A stretch of DNA of 64,000 nt, taken from a virus. Below, piece by piece: positions 6,851 through 54,318 of the stretch. The notes under the pieces are model-generated. The model was given only the letters and a program-made list of their open reading frames with translations, was not told the origin of the DNA and did no database searches. Location: IMG/VR virus record IMGVR_UViG_3300045988_182790. One strand, 5' to 3'. Position 1 is the stretch's first letter. Each line of letters opens with the position of its first letter. A program made the position numbers and the translations under genes.

Positions 6851-8116
6851 TCACTTTTTCTCAATGCCTCTCTTTGCGTAGCAATGTGGACATTCAATAA
6901 AATGAACCCCTTCTGGCAGGAAAGTTATATCTTCATCACTTTCTTCGCCACAAATTGGGCACGTCATATGTTCTATCTGATGAACAACCGCTGTATGAAA
7001 CTCTTTTGTTTTTTCATCTACGTCATATAACTTGGCGTATAATTCGCTTGTAACATCATCCGAGATTTTAAGATACATTACGCACCATTGCTGATTAAAT
7101 TTGTTGGTTTTTAAGCAATCTCTCATCTTGTTGAGCATAACATTCCATCTTGCGTTCTTTAAACCAGCAATATAGTCTATAGTCTCTTTATAAAGAACTT
7201 TGATTTTATCAAGCTCCTTTTTATTGTTTTCCTTCTCTTCTTTTGACAATCCTCTTTTCTTCTTTTTATCAGAGGTCTTTTCTTCTGATACGTTAGAGGC
7301 TTTTTCTTTTGCAGGCTTTGGAACATCCTGAGGCTTTGGAATTTCTTTATCAGGTTTTATTTTTACTGGTTTATCCAATTTATTTTCCAATTCGACTGGT
7401 TCAACTGCTTTATCTCTAATAGATGAATGTTCTGCTGATTTATTGATAGCATCAGAAACCTTTTCTAATGCTTTTTCGGTTTCAATAACTACATCAGAGG
7501 TTAATTTGAACTCATCTTTTTCTTTGTTTTCGGTTTCTGGTATTGCATCTTTTACAATCTCTTTTGCTGTTACATTTTCTGCAACTGTGTCTTCTGTGAT
7601 ATTGTCTTCTGAGACTATATTTTCTGGCACAGTATCCTTTTCCACCCAAAGGAAATCTTTTTCTGTTAAGACATCATCATCACTGTTTGAGTAATGAGAA
7701 AGTAACACATTGTTAACAATTGTTTCATTATCAATATCCTGTAAATGATACTGTTTATAAATTTCATCTTTGTTAATTTTTGAACAGTCAAGACCTATAG
7801 CATCAAATAAAGTCTCGATTGCAGGATTTTTGAATCCTGAAACATCAAAAGAGTTAACTTTGTTATGACTGCATTCATTTGTATGAATATAAATTGTATT
7901 CGGCTCCTCTGCCATATTTTCTTTATCTGCAGTAAGAATACAGTTTATATCTTTGTCAGAAAATAATTCCATCTCATTTTCTATCACACATTCAATACTT
8001 TCAGGTTCGCCTATGAACTTTATGTGTGAAAAAAGACCTTTACCTTTACGGTTTATGTAAATTTTGTTAAATACTGCCAACTCTGGACAAAAATCTTTAC
8101 ACCAATCTGTTTGCAT
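6851..8116 (-). CDS. hypothetical acidic/K-E-rich protein with C-terminal zinc ribbon
   Basis: C-terminus CPICGEE...CPHC. Long low-complexity K/E/D central region. Class-A motif at 8148-8160. Confidence 0.5.
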   Translation of the reverse strand: MQTDWCKDFCPELAVFNKIYINRKGKGLFSHIKFIGEPESIECVIENEMELFSDKDINCILTADKENMAEEPNTIYIHTNECSHNKVNSFDVSGFKNPAIETLFDAIGLDCSKINKDEIYKQYHLQDIDNETIVNNVLLSHYSNSDDDVLTEKDFLWVEKDTVPENIVSEDNITEDTVAENVTAKEIVKDAIPETENKEKDEFKLTSDVVIETEKALEKVSDAINKSAEHSSIRDKAVEPVELENKLDKPVKIKPDKEIPKPQDVPKPAKEKASNVSEEKTSDKKKKRGLSKEEKENNKKELDKIKVLYKETIDYIAGLKNARWNVMLNKMRDCLKTNKFNQQWCVMYLKISDDVTSELYAKLYDVDEKTKEFHTAVVHQIEHMTCPICGEESDEDITFLPEGVHFIECPHCYAKRGIEKK

Positions 8117-9061: not shown

Positions 9062-9065
9062 TATA

Positions 9066-9104
9066 AAAAAAGACCTGTCCGAAAAATGGATAGGTCTTTT
9101 TTTT
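9066..9104. terminator. bidirectional terminator
   Basis: AGACCTGTCCgaaaaatGGATAGGTCT flanked by A- and T-runs, between convergent genes. Confidence 0.6.
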
Positions 9105-9108
9105 TAGA

Positions 9109-10401
9109 TTATGCTGAAAATTCAATCAAATATTCAATTGTTGCCTGCTCTTCCCTATAAACGATAACTTCATCATTTACAAGGCGGCTCATTGAAGCTT
9201 TTTTTGAACTCATCGCCCACAGACAATCATGGTCTGGAACATTCTGCTCAAAATCAACTACGGTATTTGGCACATAATTGTTGTACTCTGTATCATTATA
9301 TACATCATACACCTTTCCAGTAGCGACTTTGAAAACAGCGAGATACCCTTTCGAACAATCTCCATGTGCCCAGTAAGAGCCGTATGAAGATGTATAACCA
9401 ATGGATTTTCTTGAGTATGGAGCAAAGTAAAGTCCATATCCAAACATCTTACCATGGATAGTTACACCATCTGGATTAAGATATAATCCATTAGTGATGA
9501 TTGACCACCAGTTAGGTGTTCCTGAACCATGAAATAGTCTTGTAACTCCATCACCATTAAGGTCAATTTTCCTGTTTTTACAGTATTCATTAAACCTTTC
9601 TTCTGTGGCAATGTTTTTAACTTTCCATGCTCTTAAGAACCTGCTTCTCTGGTCAGTCATCATTTCTTTAAGCATAGCAACCTCTTCGTCTGAACAAGAG
9701 GTCATTTCAATGCCATTTGTTTCAAGAATTGTCTTACCAGCCTCCTGTTTGTCAGAAGAACGAAGCATTGATTTTAAGAAATCAAGCAAATCCTGTTCCG
9801 CCTGAATAGTGTCACTAAACTGTTCTTTCGACAAACATTTATGCTTGTTCATATTCCTCATAACACGAGGTATAACAGTCCACAGTTCAAGCAGGTATCT
9901 GTTAAACTCTGGAACAGAAAGTTTATCTTTCTTATCCTGCAAGAGCTTAATGATTTCCTGAGCCTTCTGCAAATCTGCATCAGGAATATCAGTGATTTTT
10001 ACCGACGAGTACTGTTCTTCAATTACCTTATTGCAGGCATCAAGAAGAATCTGCACTATATCAGCAACATCTGGGTCATCAATAGGCTTTGTATTAGACG
10101 TAACAACCTCTTTTTCCTCAGCCTCTTCCGTTGCTACGACTTTGTAACCATGGTCAATCTGGCACCAAAAGGTATCATCCCATGTTTCTATAGGACATTT
10201 TCTCGCCTTAGGCGCTTTCCTACCATATTTGCGGCCAATATCACCGCTTATGAGCTGAAAGGTCTTTCCGTCTGAATCAGCCTTCATGGTGACTGTTTTG
10301 TTAACACCGTTCGTGGCATTAAACTTAACCAGCCTCATCTGGATATAGGTCTGGTTTGGAACAGCAATGACTGTTCCGTTTTCATCTTCGTACTGTTTCA
10401 T
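9109..10401 (-). CDS. PARP-like ADP-ribosyltransferase (WGR-like + helical + ART catalytic domain)
   Basis: C-terminal domain aligns with PARP1 catalytic motifs: LFHGSG (H-G-S), GKMFGYGLYFA (GxGxYFA), YSRKSIGY, and C-terminal NDEVIVY...IEYLIEF (compare PARP1 YNEYIVY...LKYLLKL with the catalytic Glu). Confidence 0.75.
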   Translation of the reverse strand: MKQYEDENGTVIAVPNQTYIQMRLVKFNATNGVNKTVTMKADSDGKTFQLISGDIGRKYGRKAPKARKCPIETWDDTFWCQIDHGYKVVATEEAEEKEVVTSNTKPIDDPDVADIVQILLDACNKVIEEQYSSVKITDIPDADLQKAQEIIKLLQDKKDKLSVPEFNRYLLELWTVIPRVMRNMNKHKCLSKEQFSDTIQAEQDLLDFLKSMLRSSDKQEAGKTILETNGIEMTSCSDEEVAMLKEMMTDQRSRFLRAWKVKNIATEERFNEYCKNRKIDLNGDGVTRLFHGSGTPNWWSIITNGLYLNPDGVTIHGKMFGYGLYFAPYSRKSIGYTSSYGSYWAHGDCSKGYLAVFKVATGKVYDVYNDTEYNNYVPNTVVDFEQNVPDHDCLWAMSSKKASMSRLVNDEVIVYREEQATIEYLIEFSA

Positions 10402-10442
10402 ATTTCTTCTCTCCTTTTAATACAAAAATTTGTTGTATAAGG

Positions 10443-10455
10443 AATATGAGATTTG
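10443..10455 (-). promoter_or_regulatory. class-A conserved upstream motif (example)
   Basis: CAAATCTCATATT on the gene strand about 40 nt before the ATG of the 9109-10401 gene. The same 10-13-mer recurs before more than 20 genes. Confidence 0.5.
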
Positions 10456-10505
10456 AGTACAAAAAAAAAGAGACACCGCTTAATGCGGTGTCTTTTTTGG
10501 TGTTA

Positions 10506-11567
10506 CTACAGAATTGTGACAATATCTCCTCTGTCGTAAGTCTTCTTACGAAGAAGAGTTTTTGTCTCGTAGCTCTCATTTGCCATAACATATGTCTCCT
10601 GAGAATTACGAATGTCACAATCGACAAGGTATGGGTAGCCTGCCAGTTCTGTAACAGCTGGAGCCTTTACCATCCTGTAGTTGTGTCCTCTGTTCTGGAA
10701 ATACAATGTATCACCAGCAAGGGCTACAACACTTCCGTCCTTGTCGAAAGTGATGCTGTCGGCAGGTGCCTTTGTGACAAAGCTGTATACTTCGTATCCA
10801 TCAGCATCCAAAATTGCCGTTGTGACATCATCCTTTGAAACAAGGATTCTGTTGTCGTAATCATCATAGCCGATGTAGTTTGTAGCGGTTGCTACAAGGA
10901 ACGACCTTGTTCCATTCTTCACTTCCTTAAGACTCTCAGGGTCAAAATTCATCGAACGGAACTGGATGTCACCATTCTCATATAAAGCCAGAGTGATGTC
11001 TTTTACAACATTTGCTGTGACTTTATTTCCGTCACCGTCAACAACATCTTCGCCGTCCTCATCAACAACAACCTCAGGGTCGATTGTGCGAAGAACCATT
11101 GCAAGTCTGTCGTCGGATAATGAAGTAACAGATACTCTACCAACTTCTCTCACAAGCTTTGTAAACTTGTCTGTAAGAGGCTTATAAGCAAACACCTCAA
11201 TGCGGTCATCCTTTGCATCTCTTGTCTTTGCTGACAGAATAATTTCGCCAGGCAATGTTGCAAGAATGTCAATGAACGACAGCTGGCCCTGCTCTGTTGC
11301 TGGCTCGCCACCACAAAGAAGCTCTCCATTGTAAATAGAGTAGCCAATTGGCTTATCCTGCTTGCCGTACTCGATGACGTCAAAGCAAGATTCTACAGAC
11401 TTGAGTGGAAGAACTACTTCGCTCTCTAAGTCGATGACCTCTTTGCCGTCAATGACATCGATTTTCTGGAGAGTTACCTCATCCTTGTCACTAACGTCTG
11501 CGACAAGCATAACCTCCTTTGTTATTTTGTTCAAAACTTTACTAGAAACTACGACTGTATTCTTCAT
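10506..11567 (-). CDS. hypothetical protein (353 aa)
   Basis: Intact ORF with class-A motif at 11610-11622. No motifs recognised. Sliding-clamp-like size but unsupported. Confidence 0.45.
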   Translation of the reverse strand: MKNTVVVSSKVLNKITKEVMLVADVSDKDEVTLQKIDVIDGKEVIDLESEVVLPLKSVESCFDVIEYGKQDKPIGYSIYNGELLCGGEPATEQGQLSFIDILATLPGEIILSAKTRDAKDDRIEVFAYKPLTDKFTKLVREVGRVSVTSLSDDRLAMVLRTIDPEVVVDEDGEDVVDGDGNKVTANVVKDITLALYENGDIQFRSMNFDPESLKEVKNGTRSFLVATATNYIGYDDYDNRILVSKDDVTTAILDADGYEVYSFVTKAPADSITFDKDGSVVALAGDTLYFQNRGHNYRMVKAPAVTELAGYPYLVDCDIRNSQETYVMANESYETKTLLRKKTYDRGDIVTIL

Positions 11568-11695
11568 ACGTCTTTCCTCCTTTTAAAAAATGTTTTATAG
11601 ATACATTACTAATATGAAATACGAAAATGCATTAACAAGACAAAATAAAAAGCGCCCACAGCCAAGGATATACCTTAGACATGAACGCTTTTCTT

Positions 11696-11812
11696 TTTTA
11701 CTTCTGAGACTGAGTTTCAGCAATCTGTTGACACTGCTGACACACCTCTGCAAGTGTCATTCCAGCTGGAACACCTTCGATAATATACTCCCCATTCTCA
11801 ATTCTTACTGAC
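11696..11812 (-). CDS. small ORF (38 aa) not in ORF track
   Basis: ATG preceded by GGGAGGAAAAAAAT and a class-A motif at 11868-11880. Sequence MSVRIENGEYIIEGVPAGMTLAEVCQQCQQIAETQSQK. Confidence 0.3.
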
Positions 11813-11878
11813 ATATTTTTTTCCTCCCTTTAAAAATGATTTTATTAATACATTTTTAATATGAGATTTGAAGGTGAA

Positions 11879-13972
11879 TTAACGAACATTAAACAAATAC
11901 TCGCAGAAAATCCGCCTGCAATCTACATATGACGGACAATATTTTCTTTTGTGGATAAATCTGGCCACTTTATTAATGATTTTGCAAATAGCATATTCGT
12001 TTGCATGGAGTAGTTTATTGATAAACTCGTCTCTGCAAACAATATGTCCATTACAAGAAAAGTATTCCCAGCCTTTTGTTGTGCGAAGCTTGTCATACAT
12101 AGTACGAACATGGTCAATTGCTGTCAGCATCTCCTTATCGTATGAGCATAGTTCAAAGTCATTGGTTAACTCAGCATAAATTTCATCTATATTCTTGGTT
12201 GGTGTAAATGTGTCAGGGTATTCTGTATCATTTTTTTCTAAAGATGCTTTCATTCCGCGTATAATGAACGAAAAATGTCCATTTGTTACAGCTTTTGCAA
12301 TGTGCATGATATCGAAATATGCAGCATTAACAGACGTATCTATCTCATATGCTTTTGCAATCTGATTTAAGGCTTTACACACCTTTTCCTGCATATCTGC
12401 ATCAGCATAATCATATATATACGTCTTCATTTGTTTCATATTGTTAGCTCTGTTTTCTGGCAGCATTGTACGAAGATACTCAAGAAATGACAAACCATAG
12501 CCATATTTATCTTCATCTACTACTGGACTGTTAGAAAAATCTTCTTCTATAATGTCAAAGTCTATGCCATCTACATTGAATGTTGTAGGTTCACTTGCTG
12601 TTTTATTTGGCAAGTTAGTTTCATTTACATCCACATAGCTTTTTTTGGCACTTTTTTTATTTTTTAAAAACAGCTCACTTTCATAAGCTGCATTCCAGTC
12701 GATTTCTGAGAAATCTTTGATACTTCCCTTTGTATGTCCACAATCGTATTTCTTGGCAATTCTTTTTACGGTTCTAAGTGGAACTTTTGTAAGAAGAACT
12801 ACCTCATTATATGTATCACACTTTAAGATTGCCTGAACAACTACTTTGTCCCTATCAATTCTTTCACTGACAACCTTTTTGTGTTTTGCTTCCTTGCTTT
12901 CTTTTGATTCAAAGAAAAACGCGAATGTCTCATCCTTAGACAAATCAAGTCTGTCAATAATATACTGATTTGTCATCTTATAAGCATAGTTTCCGTTCTT
13001 TGCACTTGCAATAATGCCTCTTATCTCGTTATTGCTGATGCTGTAATCGGCAAATCCGTTATTAAATTCCTCAAGGGCGATAATTGCATCTTCCAATGGC
13101 ATAACAAGAATTGCTGTATGGAAGAAAATAAAACACAATGTATGATGTTTTGTAGACCAGTTTGTCCTACTATCACGCAAAGCAATAAGGTTCTCCAGTC
13201 TCTTTACAGCAAATTCTTCTATTGATTTTTTATTATGCTTTTTTGTCTTCTTTCCAGCATAAACAAACCCACAAATATCAGCTATTTCCGTGAGTGTGTA
13301 TTTTGCATCCTTGTTAAGCTCCAAGAGTCTACAGTATGTATGGGCTTCATAATTGTATGTACCAGGCAGTCTACAAAGTCTTGTTCCGTCCAGAACGCTT
13401 TTATCAACATCGAGAGTATCTTTGTCTCTTAAGATGTTTGCAATCTTGTTAGCAAGCTTTTTGTAAATAGCCTTGAAAAATCTTATCTGTTTTTCAGTAT
13501 CGCCAAATCCAGCAATAGATTTTGGCATGACAAAATACAGACCAAGGCCCCTGCCACTGTCTGTAAGCATTGTATAATTACATATTTCGTTGTTACTTAT
13601 AGCTTCTTTCAGCAAAGCTATTGTATTTTTCTTTCTCTTGGCAATCTCTTCGTCAGAGCTATTATGCGCATCCAAGTCAATGAAAAATCCATTGTAGCAG
13701 AATATCTTGTTCGATAATCTTCTATTTCCTGCAAATCTGTTAACAGTAATGTATGTATTTCCATTGTTTTCTGCAGAAATAAGTTTTTTAGGAACGCATG
13801 ATGCCAGAGGTTTTACTGACGGCTGTTTGTCCTTAAAACTGCACTTAATAATGGAACCCATATGATGAGTGCCATGCAATGTTTCTATGAAGTTTTTCTG
13901 CTCATTAAACAAAACATCTATTTCCATGCGTCTTGTCCTTTCGTATTTATTAGAAATATGAATTATGTACAA
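11879..13972 (-). CDS. primase-polymerase (AEP/PrimPol) domain protein with C-terminal extension
   Basis: Motif I FFIDLDAHN (hhhDhD); motif II TDSGRGLGLYFV; motif III RLCRLPGTYN. True start probably the internal MEIDVLF (ATG at 13929), which carries RBS AAAGGACAAGACGC and a class-A motif. Confidence 0.65.
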   Translation of the reverse strand: MYIIHISNKYERTRRMEIDVLFNEQKNFIETLHGTHHMGSIIKCSFKDKQPSVKPLASCVPKKLISAENNGNTYITVNRFAGNRRLSNKIFCYNGFFIDLDAHNSSDEEIAKRKKNTIALLKEAISNNEICNYTMLTDSGRGLGLYFVMPKSIAGFGDTEKQIRFFKAIYKKLANKIANILRDKDTLDVDKSVLDGTRLCRLPGTYNYEAHTYCRLLELNKDAKYTLTEIADICGFVYAGKKTKKHNKKSIEEFAVKRLENLIALRDSRTNWSTKHHTLCFIFFHTAILVMPLEDAIIALEEFNNGFADYSISNNEIRGIIASAKNGNYAYKMTNQYIIDRLDLSKDETFAFFFESKESKEAKHKKVVSERIDRDKVVVQAILKCDTYNEVVLLTKVPLRTVKRIAKKYDCGHTKGSIKDFSEIDWNAAYESELFLKNKKSAKKSYVDVNETNLPNKTASEPTTFNVDGIDFDIIEEDFSNSPVVDEDKYGYGLSFLEYLRTMLPENRANNMKQMKTYIYDYADADMQEKVCKALNQIAKAYEIDTSVNAAYFDIMHIAKAVTNGHFSFIIRGMKASLEKNDTEYPDTFTPTKNIDEIYAELTNDFELCSYDKEMLTAIDHVRTMYDKLRTTKGWEYFSCNGHIVCRDEFINKLLHANEYAICKIINKVARFIHKRKYCPSYVDCRRIFCEYLFNVR

Positions 13973-20739: not shown

Positions 20740-20936
20740 ATCTTTTTCCTGCTACTCAAAATGTGATTAAATATACTCATCACATCGAGAAATTGTAAGT
20801 TCTCACGAACATTACTTACTGCTTCATCGTGTATGTTCTCGATTGGATAAATCCATATCTACTAACAGGTTCTTGTACACTCCACAGTCGTTAATTCCTG
20901 CGATAGCCCGCAGTACATACTTACGTTTGCGTTTAA

Positions 20937-22115
20937 TTATGCAACTTCGTAAGTTATAGCGTCTCTCAAATTAAGACTTGCATTGAAATCCCTATCTTCA
21001 ACATAGCCACATTTACATCTGTAAACTCTATCTGAAAGCTTTAAATCTTTCTTGATACAGCCACAGCAATGACAAGTTTTTGAAGATGGATAAAATCTAT
21101 CTACAATTCTTAATTCAATACCATTATCATCGCATTTAGCTTTAAGCTTTGTTCTAAACTCATAGAATTTCTGCGATGCAACAGCTTTTGAAAGATGTCT
21201 GTTCTTCATCATTCCTGATACATTCAAATCTTCAATCGTTATGTAAGATGGCTTGGTTTTCACTATCTCAGCGATTGTTTTATTGATATAATCGGTACGG
21301 ATATTATCCATTTTATGATGAAGTTTCTGTACTTTGAGCTTTTGTTTCTGTATATTCGCTCTTTGAGTAGTCTCTCCTTTCTTTAAATTTTCATATTTAC
21401 GAGAAAGACTTCTCTGTTCTCGAATTAATTGTTTTTCCAGTTTCTTAACTTTGCCAGACTTGTTAATGTTCTTGTATTTTTTGCCATCAGAAATGATAGC
21501 AAAGTCCTTCAATCCAAGGTCAATTCCAATTCCTTCATTCGAATTATTGGCAATTTCAGGATTAGGTATTTCTACAAGAACAGATACATAATATCTACCA
21601 GCTTTTATTGAAACTGAACCGCTTTTTATCACATAACCATCTTTTGTCGTTGGGATGTATCCTTTTTCTTTGATACGCACCCAGCCAAGCGTTGGTATGT
21701 TAATTCTATGTCTTTCGCAATAACAATCTTTTGGATTATTTTTGACGAAATACATTTTCACATCGGACTTGTCTTTCTTTTTAAATTTTGGAAAGGCTGC
21801 TTGATGCTTAAAAAATTTTGTAAAAGCGGTACACCCATTTTCGATTGAGCGTTTTACAGACTTTGAGCTAACTTCTTTAATCCAAGAATATTCAGGATGA
21901 TTTGGAAGATATTCGTTGTTAAGCCAAACACTAAATGACTTACCACTCATAAACTTTTCACCTTTTGAGTAAAGCTCTTTGTTGTGAGCAAGATAGAAAT
22001 TGTAAACATATCTACAGGTTCCTATTGTCTTGTTAATTTTGACCTTTTGCTCTTCTGTTGGATTGATTTCTGTCTTGAAGCTCTTTAACTTTGTTGACTT
22101 GTTCATATTTTTCAC
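20937..22115 (-). CDS. tnpB: TnpB (OrfB_IS605, RuvC-like + zinc finger)
   Basis: C-terminal CHCCGC...CKCG zinc finger and DRDFNASLNL RuvC-III motif. Class-A motif at 22149-22161. Confidence 0.8.
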   Translation of the reverse strand: MKNMNKSTKLKSFKTEINPTEEQKVKINKTIGTCRYVYNFYLAHNKELYSKGEKFMSGKSFSVWLNNEYLPNHPEYSWIKEVSSKSVKRSIENGCTAFTKFFKHQAAFPKFKKKDKSDVKMYFVKNNPKDCYCERHRINIPTLGWVRIKEKGYIPTTKDGYVIKSGSVSIKAGRYYVSVLVEIPNPEIANNSNEGIGIDLGLKDFAIISDGKKYKNINKSGKVKKLEKQLIREQRSLSRKYENLKKGETTQRANIQKQKLKVQKLHHKMDNIRTDYINKTIAEIVKTKPSYITIEDLNVSGMMKNRHLSKAVASQKFYEFRTKLKAKCDDNGIELRIVDRFYPSSKTCHCCGCIKKDLKLSDRVYRCKCGYVEDRDFNASLNLRDAITYEVA

Positions 22116-25463: not shown

Positions 25464-25985
25464 ATGAGAATTGACACAATTAAAGGTATTATTGATGGGT
25501 TTTGCTATGCATCTATCGAGATGGAAGGCGGACACATCTCTCGTCACATTAAGTGTGAGGATGGATTTCTTATTGACAGGATTTTGTCAGAAAGAAAAGA
25601 GTTGGCAACGACATTTGATTGCAGTTCTGATGAGGCGGTTGAGCTTATCAAAACAGCTTGTCTTGACGAAGAATGGCAAATGCCAGAATGCATTAAAGAA
25701 TGGTTGGATGATGAGTCTGACCGTGATGATTATGCTTTCGATTTTGATTTTGACCATGTAATAGGGCATGGCTTCTTCAAAAAGGGATGGCATGACTGGA
25801 ACTCAGGCGTCGCCTACTGTTCTCGACTCACCGTGGTGTTAAGAAAGGTTGAACTCCGCGACGGAAGTGACACTTTTCGTGTTTATTCTGCTTATCCGAC
25901 AGTTACAGAGGAAGATATAGAGCGAACAAAGGCTCAGTCTATTAATGCAATGAATGTCAGGGCTGTTAGATATGCAATAGCTTAA
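25464..25985 (+). CDS. hypothetical acidic protein (174 aa)
   Basis: ATG at 25464 after GGAGGAAATTATT. Its promoter/RBS region is a 65-nt copy of the one in front of 24503. Confidence 0.5.
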   Translation: MRIDTIKGIIDGFCYASIEMEGGHISRHIKCEDGFLIDRILSERKELATTFDCSSDEAVELIKTACLDEEWQMPECIKEWLDDESDRDDYAFDFDFDHVIGHGFFKKGWHDWNSGVAYCSRLTVVLRKVELRDGSDTFRVYSAYPTVTEEDIERTKAQSINAMNVRAVRYAIA

Positions 25986-31205: not shown

Positions 31206-32786
31206 TTAGGAGAAATCTTCTTTATTATCGGTATTCTTTTTTGATACTGCTGGCTGTTTTGCTTCTGGCAGTTCAACCTTTACTTCATCAGGAATGCCAT
31301 TTACAGTGATGTTTTTGTTTACCTTGGCATCATATGTATTGGCTTTCATAATCTCTGTAAAATCAACACCTGTCGCCTCGGACATTGTATCGAAAATCTG
31401 TTTCATTACAACTGGAACGTTGTTTGAGATACCAGTAACCCCGCCGTCTCCAGTTCCACCACCATAAATTGATACATTATCAATAGATGCAAGTGGTTTT
31501 GCAATTTCTGCCGCCATTTGTGGCATGATGTTTACAATCATTTCTACCATAGCCGCGCCTGTATACTTCTTGTAAGCTTCGGCCTTCTTTTCCATCGCCT
31601 CTGCCTCAGCAAGTCCCTTCGCCTCGATAGCTTTAGCTTCTGCTTCACCGACTGCAGCAATACCTTCTGCCTCGGCACGTTTTACAGCAAGGATTCCTTC
31701 GGCTTCTTTTTTCTTTGCCTCTTTTTCAGCATCAGCCTTGATTTTTCTCACTTCGGCATCTTTTTGCTGTTCGTACTTATCGGCATCTGCCTGTCTCTGC
31801 TTCTCGATAAGTTCAGCTTCGGCTTCCTGCTGACGACGATATTTTTCAGCATCAGCTTTCTTTTTAATCTCCGCATTAAGAGTCTGCTCCATAACTTCTG
31901 CCTCTTTCTGGCGAAGCTCTACGGTACGTTCCTGCTGAGCAATATCAGCATTTACTCTTGTTGCTTCGATAGTTTTTCTCTGTTCCTCTTCCTGAATCTG
32001 ATAAGCCGCATCTGCAATAGCTTTCTTTGTATCAGATTCCTGCTTTAATTCTGCCTGTTTTATAGCGAGTTCATTCTGTTTTGCAGCAATCTCTGTTTCA
32101 GCCGCAACTCTCGCATCATTTGCCTCTTTTTCAGCCTGTGCTCTTGCAATAGCGACGTCTCTGTCAGCATTTGCTTTTGCGATGGAAGCATTTTTGCTAA
32201 TCTGAGCAACATTATCAATACCCATATTAACAATGACATCATCATTGTCTGAGAAATTCTGAACATTGAAAGATTTTATACTAAGACCCATTCGTTTTAA
32301 ATCTGGTTCTGCATTCTGAGTGACCAATTCACCGAATTTCTGACGGTCAGTAACCATTTCCTGTAGGTGCATTCTACCGACAATCTCTCTCATGTTGCCT
32401 TCAAGCACTTCTCTTGCAATGTTTCCAATTGCCTGAGGTGGTAAATTAAGGAAATTTCGTGCAGCGGTTTCAAGCATTGCTGGGTCATCAGCTTCTACTT
32501 GTACATTGACGTTTGCATCAACCATAATATTAATATAATCAGCTGTTGGTACTGGTGAAGATGTTGTAACTTCAACTGGAATAAGTTTCAATGACAGCTT
32601 GTCTTTCTTTTCCAGAAATGGAATTTTAACTCCAGCTCTTCCGATTAACACCTTGGGCTTTTTTCTTAATCCAGTAATAATAAATGCTTCATCTGTTGAA
32701 GCTTTTACATACCCACTTGCAAGAATAATTGCTAATAAAATTACCGCGACGGCGATAATAAAAACTACAGGACTAATAAAATTCAT
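31206..32786 (-). CDS. flotillin-like SPFH/band-7 membrane protein
   Basis: N-terminal TM helix, SPFH-like core, and a long A/E/K-rich coiled-coil (AEKEA...KAIEAKGLAEAEA) typical of YqiK/FloT flotillins. Confidence 0.75.
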   Translation of the reverse strand: MNFISPVVFIIAVAVILLAIILASGYVKASTDEAFIITGLRKKPKVLIGRAGVKIPFLEKKDKLSLKLIPVEVTTSSPVPTADYINIMVDANVNVQVEADDPAMLETAARNFLNLPPQAIGNIAREVLEGNMREIVGRMHLQEMVTDRQKFGELVTQNAEPDLKRMGLSIKSFNVQNFSDNDDVIVNMGIDNVAQISKNASIAKANADRDVAIARAQAEKEANDARVAAETEIAAKQNELAIKQAELKQESDTKKAIADAAYQIQEEEQRKTIEATRVNADIAQQERTVELRQKEAEVMEQTLNAEIKKKADAEKYRRQQEAEAELIEKQRQADADKYEQQKDAEVRKIKADAEKEAKKKEAEGILAVKRAEAEGIAAVGEAEAKAIEAKGLAEAEAMEKKAEAYKKYTGAAMVEMIVNIMPQMAAEIAKPLASIDNVSIYGGGTGDGGVTGISNNVPVVMKQIFDTMSEATGVDFTEIMKANTYDAKVNKNITVNGIPDEVKVELPEAKQPAVSKKNTDNKEDFS

Positions 32787-33016: not shown

Positions 33017-34372
33017 TTACACTAATCTATTGATGCCCTCTTTTGCAAGCGGACTTCTTACCGACTCAGAATTATCAAATGTAATCTGAGCACACAATTT
33101 GGAACCCTTCATCTTTTCTGCCGCAAAAACTAATCCATTATTCCATTTATCCAGTACTGGATTATCTATCTGATTAGGGTCTCCGCAGATAACAACTTTT
33201 GTTCCCTGTCCAGCTCTTGTAATAATATCTCTTATCTGAGAGCGTGTTGCATTCTGAGTTTCATCTACTATCAAATAACTGTTTGTAATAGAACGTCCCC
33301 TCATGTATGCTAAAGGACAGATTTCGATAATGCCAGTTTCAAACATATCCTCTATTTGCATCTGTATTTCTCGATTGTCTATATCCTTATTTTTACTACG
33401 AATAATTGATTGTAAATTATCGTAGAACGGAGCCATTAATGGGTTCATCTTCTCTTCCAAATCGCCTGGCAAATAACCAAAATCTGCATCGGCCATAACA
33501 TTATTTCGAGAAATAAGTATTCTGTCGTAAGAACGTTCCTTTTTACTGTTGTATACTTGGTCTAGTCCGCCAACCAATGAGAGGAAAGTTTTTGAAGTAC
33601 CTGCATTTCCCCTTAAAATAACAAAAGGTATTTCATCAACTGGAGCTAATAATGCGTGTAATGCAAAGTGTTGTGCAACATTTTTAGGTGTAATTCCGAA
33701 GGAATGAGTTTTCTTTGAGTCGATTAAGTTGATATTTCCGTTTTGATATATTCCTAAAAGCGACTGGTTGCCACATTTTATAGTAAGAAATTCATTCTCA
33801 ATGAAAGGTGGCTTCACATCATCAAACTCTCTAAGCTCAAGTGTTTTTTCTTTTACCAATTTTTCCATTGCAGCATAATTGTTTGTCTCAACAATTCTTC
33901 TGCCAAGATATGTTTCTTTATCAGAGGCTATTCTGTCATTTTTGTATGCCTGAACATTTTGATTTAATCCGCAGGCAGAAGCGTTTATTCGCATTGAAAT
34001 ATCGTTTGTTACTAAGATAACATTTTCGTCAGGATTATTTGCTTTTGCAAAAAGTGTTGTTCCAATAATTTGATTATCTGGCTTTTCTTTGCTATAGCTT
34101 GCTGGGAGAATTGATGTATCAGACTGTAAAATCATAAACTTTCCACCATTATCAAGCTCAACACCAGTGGTTAAATCTCCCTTTTCTCTTATTGCCTCAA
34201 GTAGTCTACAAGTCTCTCTTGCATTAAAACCAATATCATTGTGCAAATTCTTTTTTGAATCAAGTTCCTGCAGAGTTGTTGTTGTGATTGCAACGGTATT
34301 GTCTGCAAAACCAAAGATTGCATTTGGTGACTCTAGCAAAATGTTTGTGTCAAGAATGTAAGTTTTCTTCAT
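33017..34372 (-). CDS. PhoH2-type protein (N-terminal PIN domain + PhoH-like ATPase)
   Basis: PIN-like N-terminus (YILDTNILLE). Walker A RGNAGTSKT, Walker B LIVDETQN, and C-terminal KH-like region. Confidence 0.8.
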   Translation of the reverse strand: MKKTYILDTNILLESPNAIFGFADNTVAITTTTLQELDSKKNLHNDIGFNARETCRLLEAIREKGDLTTGVELDNGGKFMILQSDTSILPASYSKEKPDNQIIGTTLFAKANNPDENVILVTNDISMRINASACGLNQNVQAYKNDRIASDKETYLGRRIVETNNYAAMEKLVKEKTLELREFDDVKPPFIENEFLTIKCGNQSLLGIYQNGNINLIDSKKTHSFGITPKNVAQHFALHALLAPVDEIPFVILRGNAGTSKTFLSLVGGLDQVYNSKKERSYDRILISRNNVMADADFGYLPGDLEEKMNPLMAPFYDNLQSIIRSKNKDIDNREIQMQIEDMFETGIIEICPLAYMRGRSITNSYLIVDETQNATRSQIRDIITRAGQGTKVVICGDPNQIDNPVLDKWNNGLVFAAEKMKGSKLCAQITFDNSESVRSPLAKEGINRLV

Positions 34373-38202: not shown

Positions 38203-40479
38203 TTACATGGCTACGATTTTTACGTCGTACCCATTCTCTGTTAATCTACCAACGACATCTGTAGATACTGTGAACTCTGTCTGACTTATATCAGACATTT
38301 CCTGCGTGTAAATTCTAAAGAAAAGTCCTGTTGTAAGGTCTGTTTCTTTATATCCCTGCGCAAAATTATAGATATTACACATATCTTCAATAGTTGGCGC
38401 AACAGCAAGAATTATTTTTGCCTGCTTATCAAGGACATTAAAGCTGTCAATAACAATCTGGTCTTCACCATTATTATCTGTGTCTTTATGTCCAATGATT
38501 TTTGTGATTGTTCCTGACTGAATGAGATTTTGATATTTCTCATAGGTTTTAGGAAAGCAAACGCCACTGATACTCTCTCCATCTTTGTCAGTGATTGTTA
38601 CAAATGCCATTTTGTCACCTTTTTTGGTTTTAATAACCTTTGCATCAGTGATGATTGCTGCCATTTTGACATTCGCTTTTTCATCTGCATTAACAATATC
38701 ATTGATAATCATGAGATTTGCGGTATCATAATCCTCTAAAGGATTTCCAGTAACCCACATTCCAAGAGCATCTACTTCTAAAAGAAGTCTTTTTTCTGTA
38801 GATAATGGGGCAACGTGTTTCTTTATAATACCTTTCATCTCATCACGAAGAATACTAAGTTCTCCCTGATATTTTCTAAGGTCAAGAACACGTTTGTTTT
38901 CCGCTTTCTCGTTTGTATATGACTGGTTTTCAAGCAAAGATATTTTTTCAATCTTCGTTTTAGCTTTTTTCCATACATCATCATAAGCCACAACATCAGT
39001 TGCACTTATTTCTCTGTTGATTGTGAAATCATCGCAAGCTCCAGAGTTAATAAGTTTTGCCACACAAGAAGCTCCGATTGTTGTTTTTTCAACAATCTCT
39101 TCGATTGAACGGAAATTGCCAGCTTTTTCTCTGTCTGCAACCAATACTTCTGCCGCACTCTTTAACCCTTTGATTGCTTTAAATCCTATTATGATGCCAT
39201 CTTTATATGGGTAATAATCTGCTTTGGATTCATTAATGTCTGGTCTATAAAGAGTGATGTTTGAAGCTTTACAATCAGCAACAAGCTGAGCTGTTTTGTC
39301 TGGTTGCCAGCCTATTATTGCGCACAAATATTCGCGCTTATAATGATATTTAAGCCATGCTGTAATATAAGATACAAGCGCATATGCTGCAGCGTGGGAT
39401 TTATTGAAACCATATTTAGCGAAAGGCATTAACTGGTCAAATAACCAATTTGCATCCTCTTCTGAAATATTTTGAGTTTCTTTACATCCTGTTACGAAAT
39501 CTGGTCTGACAGCGGCCAACTCTTCCTCATGTTTTTTGCTCATATGTCTTCTAACATTATCAGCATCACCCATGTCAAAGCCTGCCGCAGTTGTCATAAT
39601 GCTCATTACCTGCTCCTGATATACTGGGAACCCATATGTTTCAGACAAAATTGGTTCAAGAAAAGGGAATTTCTCCACAAATGGAGATTTTCTTCCAGTA
39701 TTCTTACAGTCAATAATGTCATCAATAAAATCCATTGGGCCAGGTCTGTATACAGAGATAGCAAGGATAATATCTTCGAAACAAGTAGGGTTAAGTCTTG
39801 TTAGCATCCCCTTCATTCCATCAGATTCTACCTGAAATACAAAGTTTGTATCTCCTTTAGCGTAAATATTCTGGAACACTTCTGTTTCAAAAGGAAGATT
39901 ATATGGCTCAATCTTTATGCCCTTTGTTTCGGTGATAATATGCATTGCATCAGTAATAGCATTAAGGTTTTTAAGCCCTAAGAAGTCCATTTTGATAAAT
40001 CCTAACTGGCCTTCGCACTGAACCATATCTGCTTGAACAGCAAATACTTCATTTCCATCATCATCGTTTGATTTCATAAGAGGTATATAATTCTCTACGT
40101 CAGTTCCATCAGAAATAATAATTCCTGCGGCGTGTGTTCCGTATGATGTTATATAGTTCTCAATCATCATTGCATAATCAATGATTGTCAGCGCTGTTTC
40201 ATTGCCGCTAAATTCAGCTTTCAACTCGTTTTCGTAATTAACGAGTTTTGCATTTGGTTCATCACCGATTAATTTACGCATTGACTTGTAAATGGAAATA
40301 TATTTCTTTTTATCTCCGCTCTCTTCAAGTCCAAGAAGCTTTGGTGCGTACTCAAGCGCGCTTTTTGCAGCAAGACGATTTTTTGTCATAATGTTTGCCA
40401 CAGAACGTTCACCGTATTTTTCCTTGACATATTTGATAGTGATTTCTCTTGCATGAGCTGAGAAATCTGTGTCAATATC
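38203..40479 (-). CDS. dnaE: DNA polymerase III alpha (DnaE-type) exon 2
   Basis: Begins DIDTDF (DnaE consensus DIDIDF). Contains GFNKSHAAAYALVSY (DnaE FNKSHSAAYA motif), fingers/thumb regions, and a C-terminal OB-like region. Confidence 0.85.
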   Translation of the reverse strand, partial: DIDTDFSAHAREITIKYVKEKYGERSVANIMTKNRLAAKSALEYAPKLLGLEESGDKKKYISIYKSMRKLIGDEPNAKLVNYENELKAEFSGNETALTIIDYAMMIENYITSYGTHAAGIIISDGTDVENYIPLMKSNDDDGNEVFAVQADMVQCEGQLGFIKMDFLGLKNLNAITDAMHIITETKGIKIEPYNLPFETEVFQNIYAKGDTNFVFQVESDGMKGMLTRLNPTCFEDIILAISVYRPGPMDFIDDIIDCKNTGRKSPFVEKFPFLEPILSETYGFPVYQEQVMSIMTTAAGFDMGDADNVRRHMSKKHEEELAAVRPDFVTGCKETQNISEEDANWLFDQLMPFAKYGFNKSHAAAYALVSYITAWLKYHYKREYLCAIIGWQPDKTAQLVADCKASNITLYRPDINESKADYYPYKDGIIIGFKAIKGLKSAAEVLVADREKAGNFRSIEEIVEKTTIGASCVAKLINSGACDDFTINREISATDVVAYDDVWKKAKTKIEKISLLENQSYTNEKAENKRVLDLRKYQGELSILRDEMKGIIKKHVAPLSTEKRLLLEVDALGMWVTGNPLEDYDTANLMIINDIVNADEKANVKMAAIITDAKVIKTKKGDKMAFVTITDKDGESISGVCFPKTYEKYQNLIQSGTITKIIGHKDTDNNGEDQIVIDSFNVLDKQAKIILAVAPTIEDMCNIYNFAQGYKETDLTTGLFFRIYTQEMSDISQTEFTVSTDVVGRLTENGYDVKIVAM

Positions 40480-40886
40480 CATTCATACCCTCGGTTTCCC
40501 GATATTTTGACTTTTAGGGGACTAGACTATATCTCGCTATTTAAAATAGCATGATGCACTTCGGTTAAGTATTCATCTCTTAACCTACTCTACTCGATTC
40601 GTCCTTAATAGGCTTATTCTCTTATTACTAAGAGTTACATTTATTAGTTCTTTCGATAGTCGTTACACTTTTGTTTATAATGTAATAAACACTTAGCACG
40701 GTATCACCTGCTATCTGTTTCCAGACCGTAGGCTCTCTTACGAAGCGGATTCGTCTATGGATTAAGCTGTATATCTCGTTGTGACGCTTCATACAGCAGT
40801 CTTATCTAGCTTCTACCGTTAGCACGTAACTCTTAGGCTACGCACACCCTTGAAAAAAGGTTCACATCATACGCCCAATATAGTTT
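40480..40886 (-). other. group I self-splicing intron (ORF-less, about 407 nt) in dnaE
   Basis: Exon 1 ends ...RVSMP (cct) and exon 2 starts DIDTDF, restoring the conserved RVSMPDIDxDF. Intron GGGCGT 11 nt in can pair with exon AUGCCU to form P1 with a U·G at the splice site. The last intron nt is G. AGATATAGTC is present (group I S-element-like). Confidence 0.65.
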
Positions 40887-49813: not shown

Positions 49814-50127
49814 CTAAATCTTCCTGCCTGCCATAATTCACAAATGATTGCAATTGGAACAAATACATATATATATCCAAAAGTTATCATATGTGTCTTA
49901 GTGTCTGTGACAGCTGAAATATGAAGAAATGTCATTGCTGCAGTAAGGAATATTGCTGTTTGCAATGATACAACTAATAGTAATAATGATGATGTTATAT
50001 ATGCCATCATAAGAGACAGGATTTCATTTGACGTTAATGAAATCCTATACTCTTTATCATGTTTGATATCATACACACCATAACAAAGCAATCCTGCGTA
50101 TACTGGGAGTAAAATACTGTTAATCAT
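49801..50127 (-). CDS. small polytopic membrane protein, possible TadV/CpaA-type prepilin peptidase
   Basis: Three TM helices with conserved-position Asp (YDIKHD, VTDTK). Sits in the Tad operon, but GGGD-type motif not seen. Confidence 0.35.
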   Translation of the reverse strand: MINSILLPVYAGLLCYGVYDIKHDKEYRISLTSNEILSLMMAYITSSLLLLVVSLQTAIFLTAAMTFLHISAVTDTKTHMITFGYIYVFVPIAIICELWQAGRFSCWT

Positions 50128-50815: not shown

Positions 50816-50832
50816 ATCTTACACCTCTTTAT

Positions 50833-51105: not shown

Positions 51106-51181
51106 GGTTGTTATAAAGTCCTTTCTATTATTGTTTTAAAATTGTTACATAATATATATGAAATATAAAAAATAGGGTTAA

Positions 51182-51901: not shown

Positions 51902-51906
51902 AATTT

Positions 51907-52416: not shown

Positions 52417-52438
52417 TTTCGTATGAAGCTCCTTTCTG

Positions 52439-53308: not shown

Positions 53309-53311
53309 ACG

Positions 53312-54313: not shown

Positions 54314-54318
54314 AGTTC

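What the first reader, a model, noticed from the sequence alone, without database searches (positions are those of the whole stretch)
9109..10401. Eukaryote-like PARP catalytic domain protein in a phage/plasmid-like context
The C-terminal 180 aa match the PARP1 ART signature in order: HGS, GxMFGYGLYFA, the S-K-S region, and the terminal NDEVIVY...YLIEF block holding the catalytic Glu. The upstream helical region resembles the PARP regulatory helical domain, and the N-terminus is WGR-like. Bacterial and phage PARPs are rare. In a mobile genome such an enzyme could modify host or element proteins, or DNA, as an anti-defence or takeover function. No PARG or macrodomain partner is evident nearby.
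Basis: partly seen in the sequence, partly recalled or inferred. Interest (0 to 1): 0.7.

Follow-up and report, generated by a model that had tools for sequence, protein, structure and literature searches.

The report
PARP-type ADP-ribosyltransferase on phage-like element
This gene really does encode a relative of the human DNA-damage enzyme PARP1, carried on a large phage-like element from a gut bacterium, but such phage PARPs are already catalogued, so it is a new and somewhat unusual member of a known family.

Summary
ORF 9109-10401 (minus strand, 430 aa) is an intact PARP1-3-type enzyme with three domains: a WGR-derived N-terminal domain, a helical domain and an ART catalytic domain.

- **Evidence for identity:** Pfam PARP scores 72.8 bits (cut-off 26.7). 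A family profile aligns end to end with the human PARP1 WGR-HD-CAT construct (E 1.7e-27). An AlphaFold model (pLDDT 85) matches the same chains best.
- **Catalytic residues:** the H-Y-E triad (H291, Y325, E411) and the NAD+-contact residues are invariant across relatives.
- **Transcription:** the gene has its own ribosome-binding site and sits between two strong terminator hairpins, inside a helicase and exonuclease module of a ≥100-kb phage-like element.
- **Novelty:** low. Phage PARPs were reported in 2014 and 2022, and one source already names this exact protein a PARP. I found 173 related viral loci and 146 genome loci.
- **What is unusual:** the window protein belongs to a divergent subfamily. 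The name-giving W-G-R motif reads S-G-D, and a longer, strongly basic hairpin follows it. The TARG1-like macrodomain "eraser" gene that sits directly upstream of PARP in 25 of 31 viral relatives is absent.

The biological role is not known. My best inference is nucleic-acid-triggered ADP-ribosylation at replication or repair intermediates.

The parts
9109..10401 (-). PARP-family ADP-ribosyltransferase gene, 430 aa plus a TAA stop
   Evidence: ORF listing. Pfam PF00644 at 72.8 bits. PHROG 23333 at E 1.7e-27. An identical protein, P0001, is named 'poly [ADP-ribose] polymerase' by JGI.
10117..10374 (-). N-terminal WGR-derived domain (aa 10-95): a four-stranded sheet, one helix and one further strand
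   Evidence: The family profile aligns this region with the PARP1 WGR domain, placing PARP1 'WGRVG' opposite the family's 'sGRiG'. Seven of 32 relatives hit Pfam WGR. The model has pLDDT of about 90 here. Foldseek alignments to WGR-HD-CAT chains span about 495 columns.
10240..10248 (-). S52-G53-D54, the position of the W-G-R signature
   Evidence: Alignments. 88 of 101 dereplicated relatives have Y-G-R at this position, and the window is the only S-G-D among them.
10198..10239 (-). Basic hairpin IGRKYGRKAPKARK (aa 55-68, net charge +7)
   Evidence: It is 5 residues longer than in canonical Y-G-R relatives and is the most basic among 119 homologues.
9718..10089 (-). Helical domain (aa 105-228), the counterpart of the PARP1 regulatory helical domain
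   Evidence: The model predicts helices at 110-131, 141-160, 163-176 and 192-216. This region aligns with the PARP1 helical domain by phmmer and by profile. F166, N167 and P178 are invariant. The Pfam PARP_reg model itself does not hit.
9112..9717 (-). ART catalytic domain (aa 229-430)
   Evidence: Pfam PARP covers aa 248-429, profile positions 15-198 of 199. H291, G292, Y325, K332, S333, Y336 and E411 are invariant.
9529..9531 (-). H291 codon (PARP1 H862 equivalent)
9427..9429 (-). Y325 codon (PARP1 Y896 equivalent)
9169..9171 (-). E411 codon, the catalytic glutamate (PARP1 E988 equivalent)
10409..10416 (-). Ribosome-binding site AAGGAGAG, 7 nt (GGAG core 9 nt) upstream of the ATG
   Evidence: Read directly from the sequence.
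10461..10497 (-). Intrinsic terminator between the upstream 353-aa gene and the PARP gene
   Evidence: Terminator scan: 9-bp stem with 6 GC pairs followed by T9. Folding energy -17.6 kcal/mol, z -5.7.
9065..9105 (.). Bidirectional terminator hairpin (A-run, stem, T-run) shared with the convergent 271-aa membrane-protein gene
   Evidence: Sequence. Folding energy -17.3 kcal/mol, z -7.2, with 0 of 200 shuffles folding as well.

Best explanation
The gene encodes an active NAD+-dependent ADP-ribosyltransferase of the PARP1-3 clade, with a WGR-derived domain, a helical domain and an ART domain. It is expressed as its own transcription unit within the replication, recombination and repair gene block of a large (>=100 kb) phage-like element. 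The host is probably a gut member of the Clostridia or Lachnospiraceae.

**Shown here**
- The gene is intact, with its own ribosome-binding site and flanking terminators.
- All NAD+-binding and catalytic residues, including the H-Y-E triad, are present and under strong conservation.
- The three-domain fold matches PARP1 and PARP2.
- The neighbours are helicases and an exonuclease.

**Inferred by analogy with PARP1-3 and with the Herpetosiphon and C. difficile enzymes**
- The helical domain keeps the active site closed.
- Binding of a nucleic-acid ligand by the N-terminal domain relieves this block. In this subfamily the contact is probably made through the enlarged basic hairpin, not through the lost Trp and Arg residues.
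- The enzyme then adds ADP-ribose, probably as chains because the Glu is present. Likely targets are the enzyme itself, nearby DNA-bound proteins (on Glu or Asp), or phosphorylated DNA ends at replication or repair intermediates.
- This element encodes no dedicated eraser next to the gene, so reversal would depend on host hydrolases or on a gene outside the visible region.
For: - **Identity:** Pfam PARP at 72.8 bits. Profile against PARP1 WGR-HD-CAT at E 1.7e-27 over profile positions 27-423. AlphaFold model with pLDDT 85.4, whose best PDB matches are PARP1 and PARP2 multi-domain chains with TM-score up to 0.65. Best viral match is a 415-aa phage 'NAD(+) ADP-ribosyltransferase', TM 0.81/0.84.
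- **Activity:** H291, G292, Y325, K332, S333, Y336 and E411 are invariant in 32 sequences. H-Y-E is kept in 100 of 101 dereplicated relatives and in all 118 full-length homologues.
- **Expression:** ribosome-binding site plus two flanking terminators.
- **DNA-metabolism context in the window:** RecD2-like, SNF2 and UvrD helicases and an RNase T-type exonuclease lie within 8 kb.
- **DNA-metabolism context in relatives:** the PARP gene sits among NAD+-dependent ligase (with BRCT), DnaE, DnaG, PD-(D/E)XK, ERCC4, RecJ, NrdD and ThyX genes.
- **Biochemical precedent:** Herpetosiphon PARP needs DNA for activation, and C. difficile PARP makes PAR in vitro (PMC8120803, PMC5966428). PARP1-3 also modify DNA terminal phosphates (PMC8385414).
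Against: - The W and R of the WGR signature are replaced (S-G-D), and the 'NKYY' strand reads 'NKTV'. Activation by DNA breaks in the PARP1 manner is therefore uncertain.
- Pfam PARP_reg and WGR models do not hit this protein.
- H-Y-E is necessary but not sufficient for chain synthesis. From general knowledge, PARP3 and PARP4 keep the triad yet are mono-transferases.
- No eraser was found in 74 kb. That fits an irreversible effector as well as it fits a repair signal.
- The gene-neighbourhood argument is weakened by overall synteny among related elements.
- No capsid or terminase gene was seen in the visible 74 kb, so 'phage' is not proven.
- No experiment on any phage PARP turned up in the literature searches.
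Confidence: 0.6

Rival explanations
1. Host-takeover or anti-defence effector. The enzyme ADP-ribosylates host proteins such as RNA polymerase, nucleoid proteins or defence proteins early in infection. It would act essentially irreversibly, like T4 Alt, ModA and ModB, but possibly with chains. This is the reading offered for jumbo-phage PARPs in PMC7824862.
For: - No cognate eraser is present in the window.
- The window's subfamily lacks the TARG1-like partner in 0 of 14 loci, against 36 of 91 for canonical relatives.
- The sensor domain has diverged.
- The gene is an independent transcription unit.
- Iyer et al. suggest that phage PARPs act like other phage ARTs on host proteins (PMC7824862).
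Against: - The gene is not next to head or packaging genes, unlike many injected ARTs (PMC9503650).
- The full helical autoinhibitory domain and the WGR-derived domain are retained and conserved. That argues for ligand-gated activity and against constitutive activity.
- Neighbours here and in relatives are DNA replication and repair genes.
- There are no PADLOC or anti-defence family hits.
Confidence: 0.25
2. Mono-ADP-ribosylating DNA-end modifier, in the manner of PARP3. The enzyme caps phosphorylated ends or nicks of the element's DNA. This would protect them from host exonucleases or prime them for ligation.
For: - PARP1-3 modify terminal DNA phosphates, and modified ends resist phosphatase (PMC8385414).
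- The N-terminal hairpin is strongly basic.
- In relatives the PARP gene sits beside NAD+-dependent ligase and a TARG1-like macrodomain. TARG1 reverses PARP3-made DNA-end marks (PMC8385414).
Against: - The idea is purely analogical. No ligase or macrodomain is present in this window.
- The 5'-phosphate-reading Trp and Arg of the WGR motif are lost.
- Even for eukaryotic PARPs, the in vivo relevance of DNA-end ADP-ribosylation is unproven (PMC8385414).
Confidence: 0.12
3. Inactive or decaying PARP remnant, or a non-PARP ART (DarT or toxin type) misread as PARP.
For: The WGR signature is degenerate, and the Pfam regulatory and WGR models are silent.
Against: - The ORF is full length with every catalytic and NAD+-contact residue invariant.
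- The subfamily is large (97 of 119 homologues) and keeps the same layout.
- The gene has a strong ribosome-binding site.
- The best profile and fold matches are all PARP1 to PARP4 and tankyrase, never DarT or toxins.
Confidence: 0.03

Closest known systems
Eukaryotic clade-1 PARPs (human PARP1, PARP2, PARP3)
   Same: - Same order of WGR, helical and ART domains.
- Same H-Y-E triad and NAD+-contact residues: H862, G863, Y896, K903, S904, Y907 and E988 correspond to H291, G292, Y325, K332, S333, Y336 and E411.
- They are the best sequence and structure matches.
- The WGR hairpin has the same length as in PARP1.
   Different: - No zinc fingers, no BRCT domain and no N-terminal tail.
- Only about 15% identity in the structural alignment.
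- W589 and R591 of the WGR motif are replaced by Ser and Asp.
- The Pfam PARP_reg and WGR models do not reach it.
- No HPF1 or PARG partners.
Characterised bacterial PARPs (Herpetosiphon aurantiacus PARP; Clostridioides difficile CD160 PARP) and the 72-member bacterial set of Garcia-Saura et al. 2018 (PMC5966428)
   Same: - A compact protein of about 400-450 aa with WGR, helical and catalytic domains and the H-Y-E triad.
- A Clostridiales clade in which Pfam sees no regulatory domain although models show a helical domain (PMC5966428), as found here.
   Different: - Most bacterial PARPs carry Y-G-R (PMC5966428; 88 of 101 groups). The window has S-G-D plus a 5-residue-longer basic hairpin.
- Those organisms pair PARP with a PARG (PMC8120803). 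No eraser was seen here.
Phage and viral PARPs ('PARTs'): Cellulophaga phages phi4:1 and phi17:2, Xanthomonas jumbo phages Xoo-sp13 and XacN1, and uncultured huge phages
   Same: - Homologous over 41-88% of the length at 25-38% identity.
- PHROG 23333.
- Carried on large phage genomes. Already noted in PMC4245714, PMC7824862 and PMC9503650.
   Different: - The closest annotated phage record is only 29% identical (LR756500).
- The window's close relatives (48-77% identity) are all unannotated metagenomic contigs.
Macrodomain(TARG1-like)-PARP gene pair of large phages and Clostridia and Bacteroidota genomes (seen here in related loci)
   Same: The PARP is homologous, at 34-39% identity, and sits in the same kind of replication and repair neighbourhood.
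   Different: - In those loci a 145-aa TARG1/OARD1-like macrodomain (E 1.2e-27 to human TARG1) ends about 12 bp before the PARP start. This is seen in 25 of 31 viral and 11 of 68 genome groups.
- The window and its subfamily lack it.

Membership tests
PARP / ARTD, clade 1 (PARP1-3-like) | ART catalytic domain matching Pfam PF00644 above the gathering score | tested here: met
   72.8 bits against a 26.7-bit cut-off, aa 248-429, profile positions 15-198 of 199.
PARP / ARTD, clade 1 (PARP1-3-like) | H-Y-E catalytic triad and the nicotinamide- and adenosine-contact residues | tested here: met
   H291, G292, Y325, K332, S333, Y336 and E411 are invariant. They align with the PARP1 HGS, GIYFA, SKS and YNEYIVY motifs.
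PARP / ARTD, clade 1 (PARP1-3-like) | Helical regulatory domain directly N-terminal to the ART domain | tested here: met
   The Pfam PF02877 model gives no hit. However, aa ~105-228 align with the PARP1 helical domain by phmmer and by profile. The model is a helical bundle that superposes on PARP1 and PARP2 HD-CAT chains.
PARP / ARTD, clade 1 (PARP1-3-like) | WGR domain (fold and homology) | tested here: met
   The profile alignment reaches the PARP1 WGR domain. Seven of 32 aligned relatives hit Pfam PF05406. Full-length Foldseek matches to WGR-HD-CAT chains. The window protein itself gives no Pfam WGR hit.
PARP / ARTD, clade 1 (PARP1-3-like) | Conserved aromatic-Gly-Arg signature (W/Y/F-G-R) of the WGR domain | tested here: not met
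   The window has S52-G53-D54. Its subfamily has lost the aromatic residue throughout.
PARP / ARTD, clade 1 (PARP1-3-like) | NAD+-dependent synthesis of poly(ADP-ribose), activated by DNA breaks | not testable with these tools
   This needs purified protein, NAD+ and DNA ligands.
Macrodomain(TARG1-like)-PARP writer-eraser gene pair | TARG1-like macrodomain gene directly upstream of PARP on the same strand | tested here: not met
   An HMM of 86 partner proteins scores no better than E 0.24 on the six-frame window. There is none in the subfamily loci. The upstream gene is an unrelated 353-aa protein followed by a terminator.
   Only PARP appears in Pfam down to E = 1. All PDB sequence and fold hits are PARP1 to PARP4 or tankyrase. 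The triad is H-Y-E, not R-S-E.
Known anti-phage defence systems (PADLOC) | Match to a PADLOC model for PARP or its immediate neighbours | tested here: not met
   No hit for PARP or for the 353-, 697-, 426-, 421- and 271-aa neighbours. The only hits are generic ones further out: UvrD/GajB-type matches for the 672-aa helicase and weakly the 385-aa protein, and DEDDh for the exonuclease.

The most novel reading that the evidence does not exclude
The window's protein represents a distinct, uncharacterised PARP subfamily: 97 of the 119 homologues retrieved, mostly on large gut or rumen Clostridia-associated elements. In this subfamily the sensor domain has been rebuilt. The W/Y and often the R of the WGR motif are lost, 'NKYY' has become 'NKTV', and a 5-residue-longer, highly basic hairpin is present. 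The usual TARG1-like eraser gene is absent. Under this reading the enzyme is gated by a ligand other than a 5'-phosphorylated DNA break, for example RNA, ssDNA or a replication intermediate. It would then lay down an essentially irreversible ADP-ribose mark during infection.
Probability: 0.25. Interest if true: 0.6.

Novelty: new member of a known kind. Interest (0 to 1): 0.38.

Why it matters
No phage PARP has a demonstrated biological role. The searches of the held paper library found only genomic surveys (PMC4245714, PMC7824862, PMC9503650).

This protein is compact at 430 aa, has a single polypeptide, models with high confidence and keeps every catalytic residue. It also carries a naturally altered sensor domain. 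That makes it a convenient system for asking how helical-domain autoinhibition is released when the canonical Trp and Arg of the WGR motif are missing.

The survey of relatives also shows that PARP genes in large phages usually travel with a TARG1-like macrodomain, and often with an NAD+-dependent ligase that has a BRCT domain. This is a minimal writer, eraser and ligase set that resembles the eukaryotic single-strand-break repair axis. Testing it could show what PARylation does in a bacterial cell. The window itself, however, adds only one more, somewhat atypical, member to a known family.

Tried and rejected
- **NCBIfam and PADLOC scans** of the PARP gave nothing.
- **Megablast of 25 kb against phage and plasmid collections** found only a TnpB/IS607 segment, so no close sequenced relative exists there.
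- **Phage versus plasmid:**
  - PHROG scans of 40 proteins gave replication proteins and one weak tail-like hit, but no capsid, portal or terminase.
  - tblastn with DnaE hit both phages and plasmids at about 32-35% identity.
  - An exact-match DNA search meant to reach the unseen 25 kb of the contig found nothing.
  - The question remains unsettled.
- **Is the window's subfamily closer to eukaryotic PARP1?** Its WGR hairpin has the PARP1 length and G-R-x-G-x3-G-x-N-K pattern, which prompted the test. The answer is no. Canonical Y-G-R relatives score higher against a PARP1 fragment, with a median of 44.7 bits against 32.9.
- **Is the syntenic 421-aa downstream protein a hidden eraser?** It has a conserved N-terminal domain, an acidic and Lys-rich linker and a C4 zinc ribbon. 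It shows no hydrolase-like motif and no significant family hit (only two sub-threshold Pfam matches and a marginal PHROG of unknown function). Its adjacency breaks in L001. I did not pursue it further.
- **A PARG signature regex (GGG-x6-8-QEE)** found nothing.
Full report
**Observation.** The window holds an ATG-to-TAA ORF of 430 aa at 9109-10401 on the minus strand, exactly as reported.
- HGS at 291-293
- GKMFGYGLYFA at 317-327
- SRKS at 330-333
- NDEVIVY at 409-415
- YLIEF at 424-428

**Is it more than chance?** Yes.
- Pfam's PARP catalytic model (PF00644) scores 72.8 bits against a 26.7-bit cut-off (E 3.5e-20) over aa 248-429. Nothing else in Pfam is significant.
- NCBIfam has no model for it. 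PHROG 23333 matches aa 69-428 at E 1.7e-27.
- A plain sequence search of the PDB finds human PARP1 WGR-HD-CAT constructs first (E 4e-9). That alignment runs from aa 81 to 373, through the helical region into the catalytic domain.

**Domain architecture.** I aligned the protein with 31 homologues spanning 35-77% identity (alignment A1).
- Invariant columns include H291, G292, Y325, K332, S333, Y336 and E411. In the HMMER alignments these sit opposite PARP1's HGS, GIYFA, SKS(ANY) and YNEYIVY motifs. They are the H-Y-E triad plus the residues that hold NAD+.
- A profile built from A1 aligns with PARP1 WGR-HD-CAT chains over profile positions 27-423 at E 1.7e-27. It places PARP1's 'WGRVG' opposite the family's 'sGRiG'.
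- Seven of the 32 members hit Pfam WGR on their own. None hits Pfam PARP_reg. Garcia-Saura et al. described the same situation for clostridial PARPs, where a helical domain appears in models although Pfam is silent (PMC5966428).
- An AlphaFold2 model built on A1 has mean pLDDT 85.4 and pTM 0.70. It shows an N-terminal sheet-plus-helix domain (aa ~10-95), a helical bundle (aa ~105-228) and an ART domain.
- Foldseek against the PDB returns PARP1 WGR-HD-CAT chains first (7s6h_D at E 2.4e-20; 4dqy_C with TM-score 0.65 over about 495 columns), then PARP2.
- Against viral models the top hit is a 415-aa phage 'NAD(+) ADP-ribosyltransferase' with TM 0.81/0.84.

**What is unusual in this copy.** At the position of the W-G-R signature the window protein reads S52-G53-D54.
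- Among 101 dereplicated groups of related loci, 88 read Y-G-R and 100 keep H-Y-E. The window is the only S-G-D.
- Among 119 homologues from the protein search, two subfamilies separate cleanly.
  - Subfamily A (22 sequences) has an aromatic-G-R motif, an 'NNKYY' strand and a 9-residue hairpin with net charge 0 to +2. This is the type Pfam recognises as WGR.
  - Subfamily B (97 sequences, including the window) has lost the aromatic residue and reads 'N-K/E-T-V' in the neighbouring strand. Its hairpin is 14 residues long and basic.
- The window's hairpin, IGRKYGRKAPKARK, has net charge +7, the highest in the set.
- About half of subfamily B keeps the Arg. The window and its closest relatives (P0002-P0005) have Asp or Glu there.
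- The hairpin length and its G-R-x-G-x3-G-x-N-K pattern resemble PARP1's WGRVGTVIGSNK. Even so, subfamily B is not globally closer to PARP1 (median 32.9 bits against 44.7 for subfamily A), so I read nothing into the resemblance.

**Transcription unit.**
- The upstream 353-aa gene ends at 10506. A 9-bp GC-rich stem with a T9 tail follows it at 10497-10461 (-17.6 kcal/mol, z -5.7).
- AAGGAGAG lies 7 nt (its GGAG core 9 nt) before the PARP ATG.
- Directly after the PARP stop codon, an A-run, stem and T-run hairpin at 9105-9065 (-17.3 kcal/mol, z -7.2) serves both PARP and the convergent 271-aa membrane-protein gene.
- PARP is therefore a monocistronic unit. No convincing sigma-70 promoter was found in the 60-nt leader.

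**The element.**
- The window corresponds to positions 35,311-99,310 of a 100,300-bp metagenomic contig. G+C is about 34%, and almost all genes are on the minus strand.
- Within 8 kb of PARP lie a RecD2-like helicase, an SNF2-type helicase, a UvrD helicase and an RNase T-type exonuclease.
- Further along are a DnaE-type polymerase split into two ORFs, a clamp-loader-like AAA protein, a DnaG-type zinc ribbon, PIN-PhoH, a flotillin, a T2SSE ATPase with a CpaB-like protein, two TnpB genes, a 1428-aa S8 peptidase and a protein with tail-like PHROG hits.
- No capsid, portal or terminase gene was found in the 74 kb I could see. I therefore call the element phage-like, not a proven phage.
- One TnpB segment is 81% identical to an Agathobacter rectalis plasmid. 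The nearest genome-borne relatives of the PARP are in Lachnospiraceae and Blautia MAGs. Both point to a Clostridia host.

**How common are such genes?**
- The word-indexed protein search gave 229 hits. One is an identical protein that JGI already names 'poly [ADP-ribose] polymerase'.
- The exhaustive search of 1.84 billion cluster representatives gave 1595, 805 and 384 clusters at E<=1e-3, 1e-10 and 1e-30.
- IMG/VR holds at least 173 related loci. About half of the 80 returned are on contigs of at least 100 kb.
- 146 loci were found in species-representative genomes: Lachnospiraceae, other Clostridia, Paenibacillus, Saprospiraceae, Cytophagales and Microscillaceae.
- GenBank phages with annotated PARPs include Cellulophaga phi4:1 and phi17:2 and Xanthomonas Xoo-sp13 and XacN1.
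- The literature already records viral PARPs:
  - Perina et al. 2014 list four, including Cellulophaga phi4:1 (PMC4245714).
  - Iyer et al. note them in jumbo phages (PMC7824862).
  - Iyer et al. also rank the PART/PARP family among the most frequent viral ARTs (PMC9503650).
- I found no experimental study of a phage PARP.

**Neighbourhood analysis.** I clustered 2,592 ORFs lying within 8 kb of the PARP gene in 162 loci.
- The most conserved neighbour is a 145-aa protein on the same strand that ends about 12 bp before the PARP start. It is present in 36 of 101 dereplicated groups: 25 of 31 viral and 11 of 68 genomic.
- It is a TARG1/OARD1-type macrodomain. It scores E 1.2e-27 to human TARG1 (4j5r) and matches the DarG macrodomain more weakly. 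It falls just under Pfam's Macro threshold, at 21.4 bits against 22.
- Other recurrent neighbours are NAD+-dependent DNA ligase with a BRCT domain, DnaE, DnaG, a PD-(D/E)XK nuclease, an ERCC4 nuclease, RecJ, NrdD and ThyX.
- In large phages PARP is therefore typically part of a writer-eraser pair inside the replication and repair block.
- The window lacks the eraser.
  - An HMM of the 86 partner proteins scores no better than E 0.24 on the six-frame translation.
  - Precomputed Pfam calls show no Macro, PARG, ARH, NADAR or Nudix in 74 kb.
  - No PARG signature is present.
- The same holds for five other subfamily-B loci fetched individually.
- Counting dereplicated groups, the partner is adjacent in 36 of 91 aromatic-G-R loci against 0 of 10 loci with a degenerate motif, or 0 of 14 with the extra loci (Fisher p 0.013 and 0.002). 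These counts are not corrected for shared ancestry.
- Subfamily-B elements share this gene order: unknown gene, PARP, a 410-440-aa zinc-ribbon protein, RNase T exonuclease, an actin-like ALP_N protein, SNF2 helicase, RecD2 helicase.

**Mechanism.**
- Shown here: the gene is intact and expressible, the catalytic apparatus is complete and conserved, the three-domain fold is that of PARP1-3, and the context is DNA metabolism.
- Inferred from the PARP1-3 model and from the DNA-dependent Herpetosiphon enzyme and the active C. difficile enzyme (PMC8120803, PMC5966428):
  - The helical domain blocks productive NAD+ binding.
  - A nucleic-acid ligand bound by the N-terminal domain releases that block.
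  - ADP-ribose, probably as chains, is then transferred to the enzyme itself, to nearby proteins or to phosphorylated DNA ends. PARP1-3 do the last of these in vitro, and TARG1 can reverse it for PARP3 (PMC8385414).
- In this subfamily the ligand contact is probably made by the basic hairpin and not by the lost Trp and Arg, so the ligand need not be a 5'-phosphorylated break.
- I put about 0.95 on the enzyme identity and about 0.5 on this mechanism and role, which gives 0.6 overall.
- The main rival, at 0.25, is an irreversible host-takeover or anti-defence effector. It is favoured by the missing eraser and the independent transcription unit. It is disfavoured by the retained autoinhibitory architecture and the replication and repair neighbourhood.
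- A PARP3-like DNA-end capping role (0.12) and a dead or misassigned enzyme (0.03) follow.

**Verdict.** The finding is real and correctly interpreted at the level of protein family. It is a new member of a known kind, not a new kind. This exact protein already carries a PARP name in a public source, and phage PARPs are in the literature. What remains of interest is the divergent sensor domain, the absence of the usual TARG1-like partner, and the fact that no phage PARP has yet been studied experimentally. Interest 0.38.

Noticed in passing
Related loci, e.g. L011:9518-9955 (macrodomain) and L007:7549-9531 (ligase), each upstream of PARP at 10001: In large-phage relatives a TARG1/OARD1-like macrodomain gene ends about 12 bp before the PARP start (25 of 31 viral groups). 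It is often preceded by an NAD+-dependent DNA ligase with a BRCT domain and by an ERCC4 nuclease. Together these form a compact writer, eraser and ligase set reminiscent of eukaryotic single-strand-break repair.
   Followed up: partly
window 38203-42533 (-): The DnaE-type DNA polymerase III alpha is split into two ORFs, 40833-42533 (PHP domain plus N-terminal half) and 38203-40482 (C-terminal half, finger, HHH and OB). The break falls at contiguous profile positions (443 and 444 of PHROG 405), and a 350-bp gap separates the ORFs. A relative (L170) has it as one 1318-aa gene. Intron, split gene or sequencing frameshift was not resolved.
   Followed up: no
window 20816-22115 (-) and 55975-57246 (-); a third copy lies just outside the window (L166:20482 onward): Several TnpB (OrfB_IS605 / Cas12f-like) genes are present. 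The first is followed by a RAGATH-18 RNA motif at 20816-20888 (72.8 bits). It is 81% identical in DNA to an Agathobacter rectalis plasmid segment, which hints at the host.
   Followed up: partly
window 50120-55710 (-): A T2SSE-family secretion ATPase (54319-55710) and a SAF/RcpC (CpaB-like) protein (50120-50815) lie among many small unannotated ORFs. This pilus- or secretion-like module is unexpected in a phage and leaves the element's class (phage, plasmid or other) open.
   Followed up: partly
window 6851-8116 (-): A 421-aa protein lies just downstream of PARP. It has a conserved N-terminal domain, a long acidic and Lys-rich linker and a C-terminal C4 zinc ribbon (C386, C389, C409, C412). 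It is syntenic with PARP in three other subfamily-B loci at 30-32% identity in tblastn (35-37% in the alignment), with no significant family match. A functional link to PARP is unproven.
   Followed up: partly
window 59652-63938 (-) and L166:15483-20021: Two very large proteins are present: a 1428-aa protein with an S8 peptidase domain (the contig's own gene call reads 1466 aa) and, outside the window, a 1512-aa protein with a weak glucosaminidase hit. They may be virion-associated or cell-wall-acting proteins.
   Followed up: no
window 31206-32786 (-), 25464-25985 (+), 33017-34372 (-): The element also encodes a flotillin/Band_7 protein, a bacterial RNase A-like protein (PF18431) on the opposite strand, and a PIN-PhoH fusion.
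   Followed up: no
window 10001-12000: G+C rises to 0.405 here, against about 0.33-0.36 in the flanks. The peak covers the unannotated 353-aa gene upstream of PARP, whose only detected homologues are in L167 and L088.
   Followed up: no
window 10198-10248 (-); PARP1 WGR hairpin: The subfamily-B hairpin has the same length and G-R-x-G-x3-G-x-N-K pattern as human PARP1's WGRVGTVIGSNK, while canonical bacterial Y-G-R PARPs are 5 residues shorter. Overall similarity does not place subfamily B closer to PARP1, so the meaning is unclear.
   Followed up: partly
Related loci, e.g. L074:5559-6275: An HNH-AP2 homing-endonuclease gene abuts the PARP gene in 9 dereplicated groups of relatives. NrdD in L001 is likewise interrupted by an HNH gene.
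   Followed up: no
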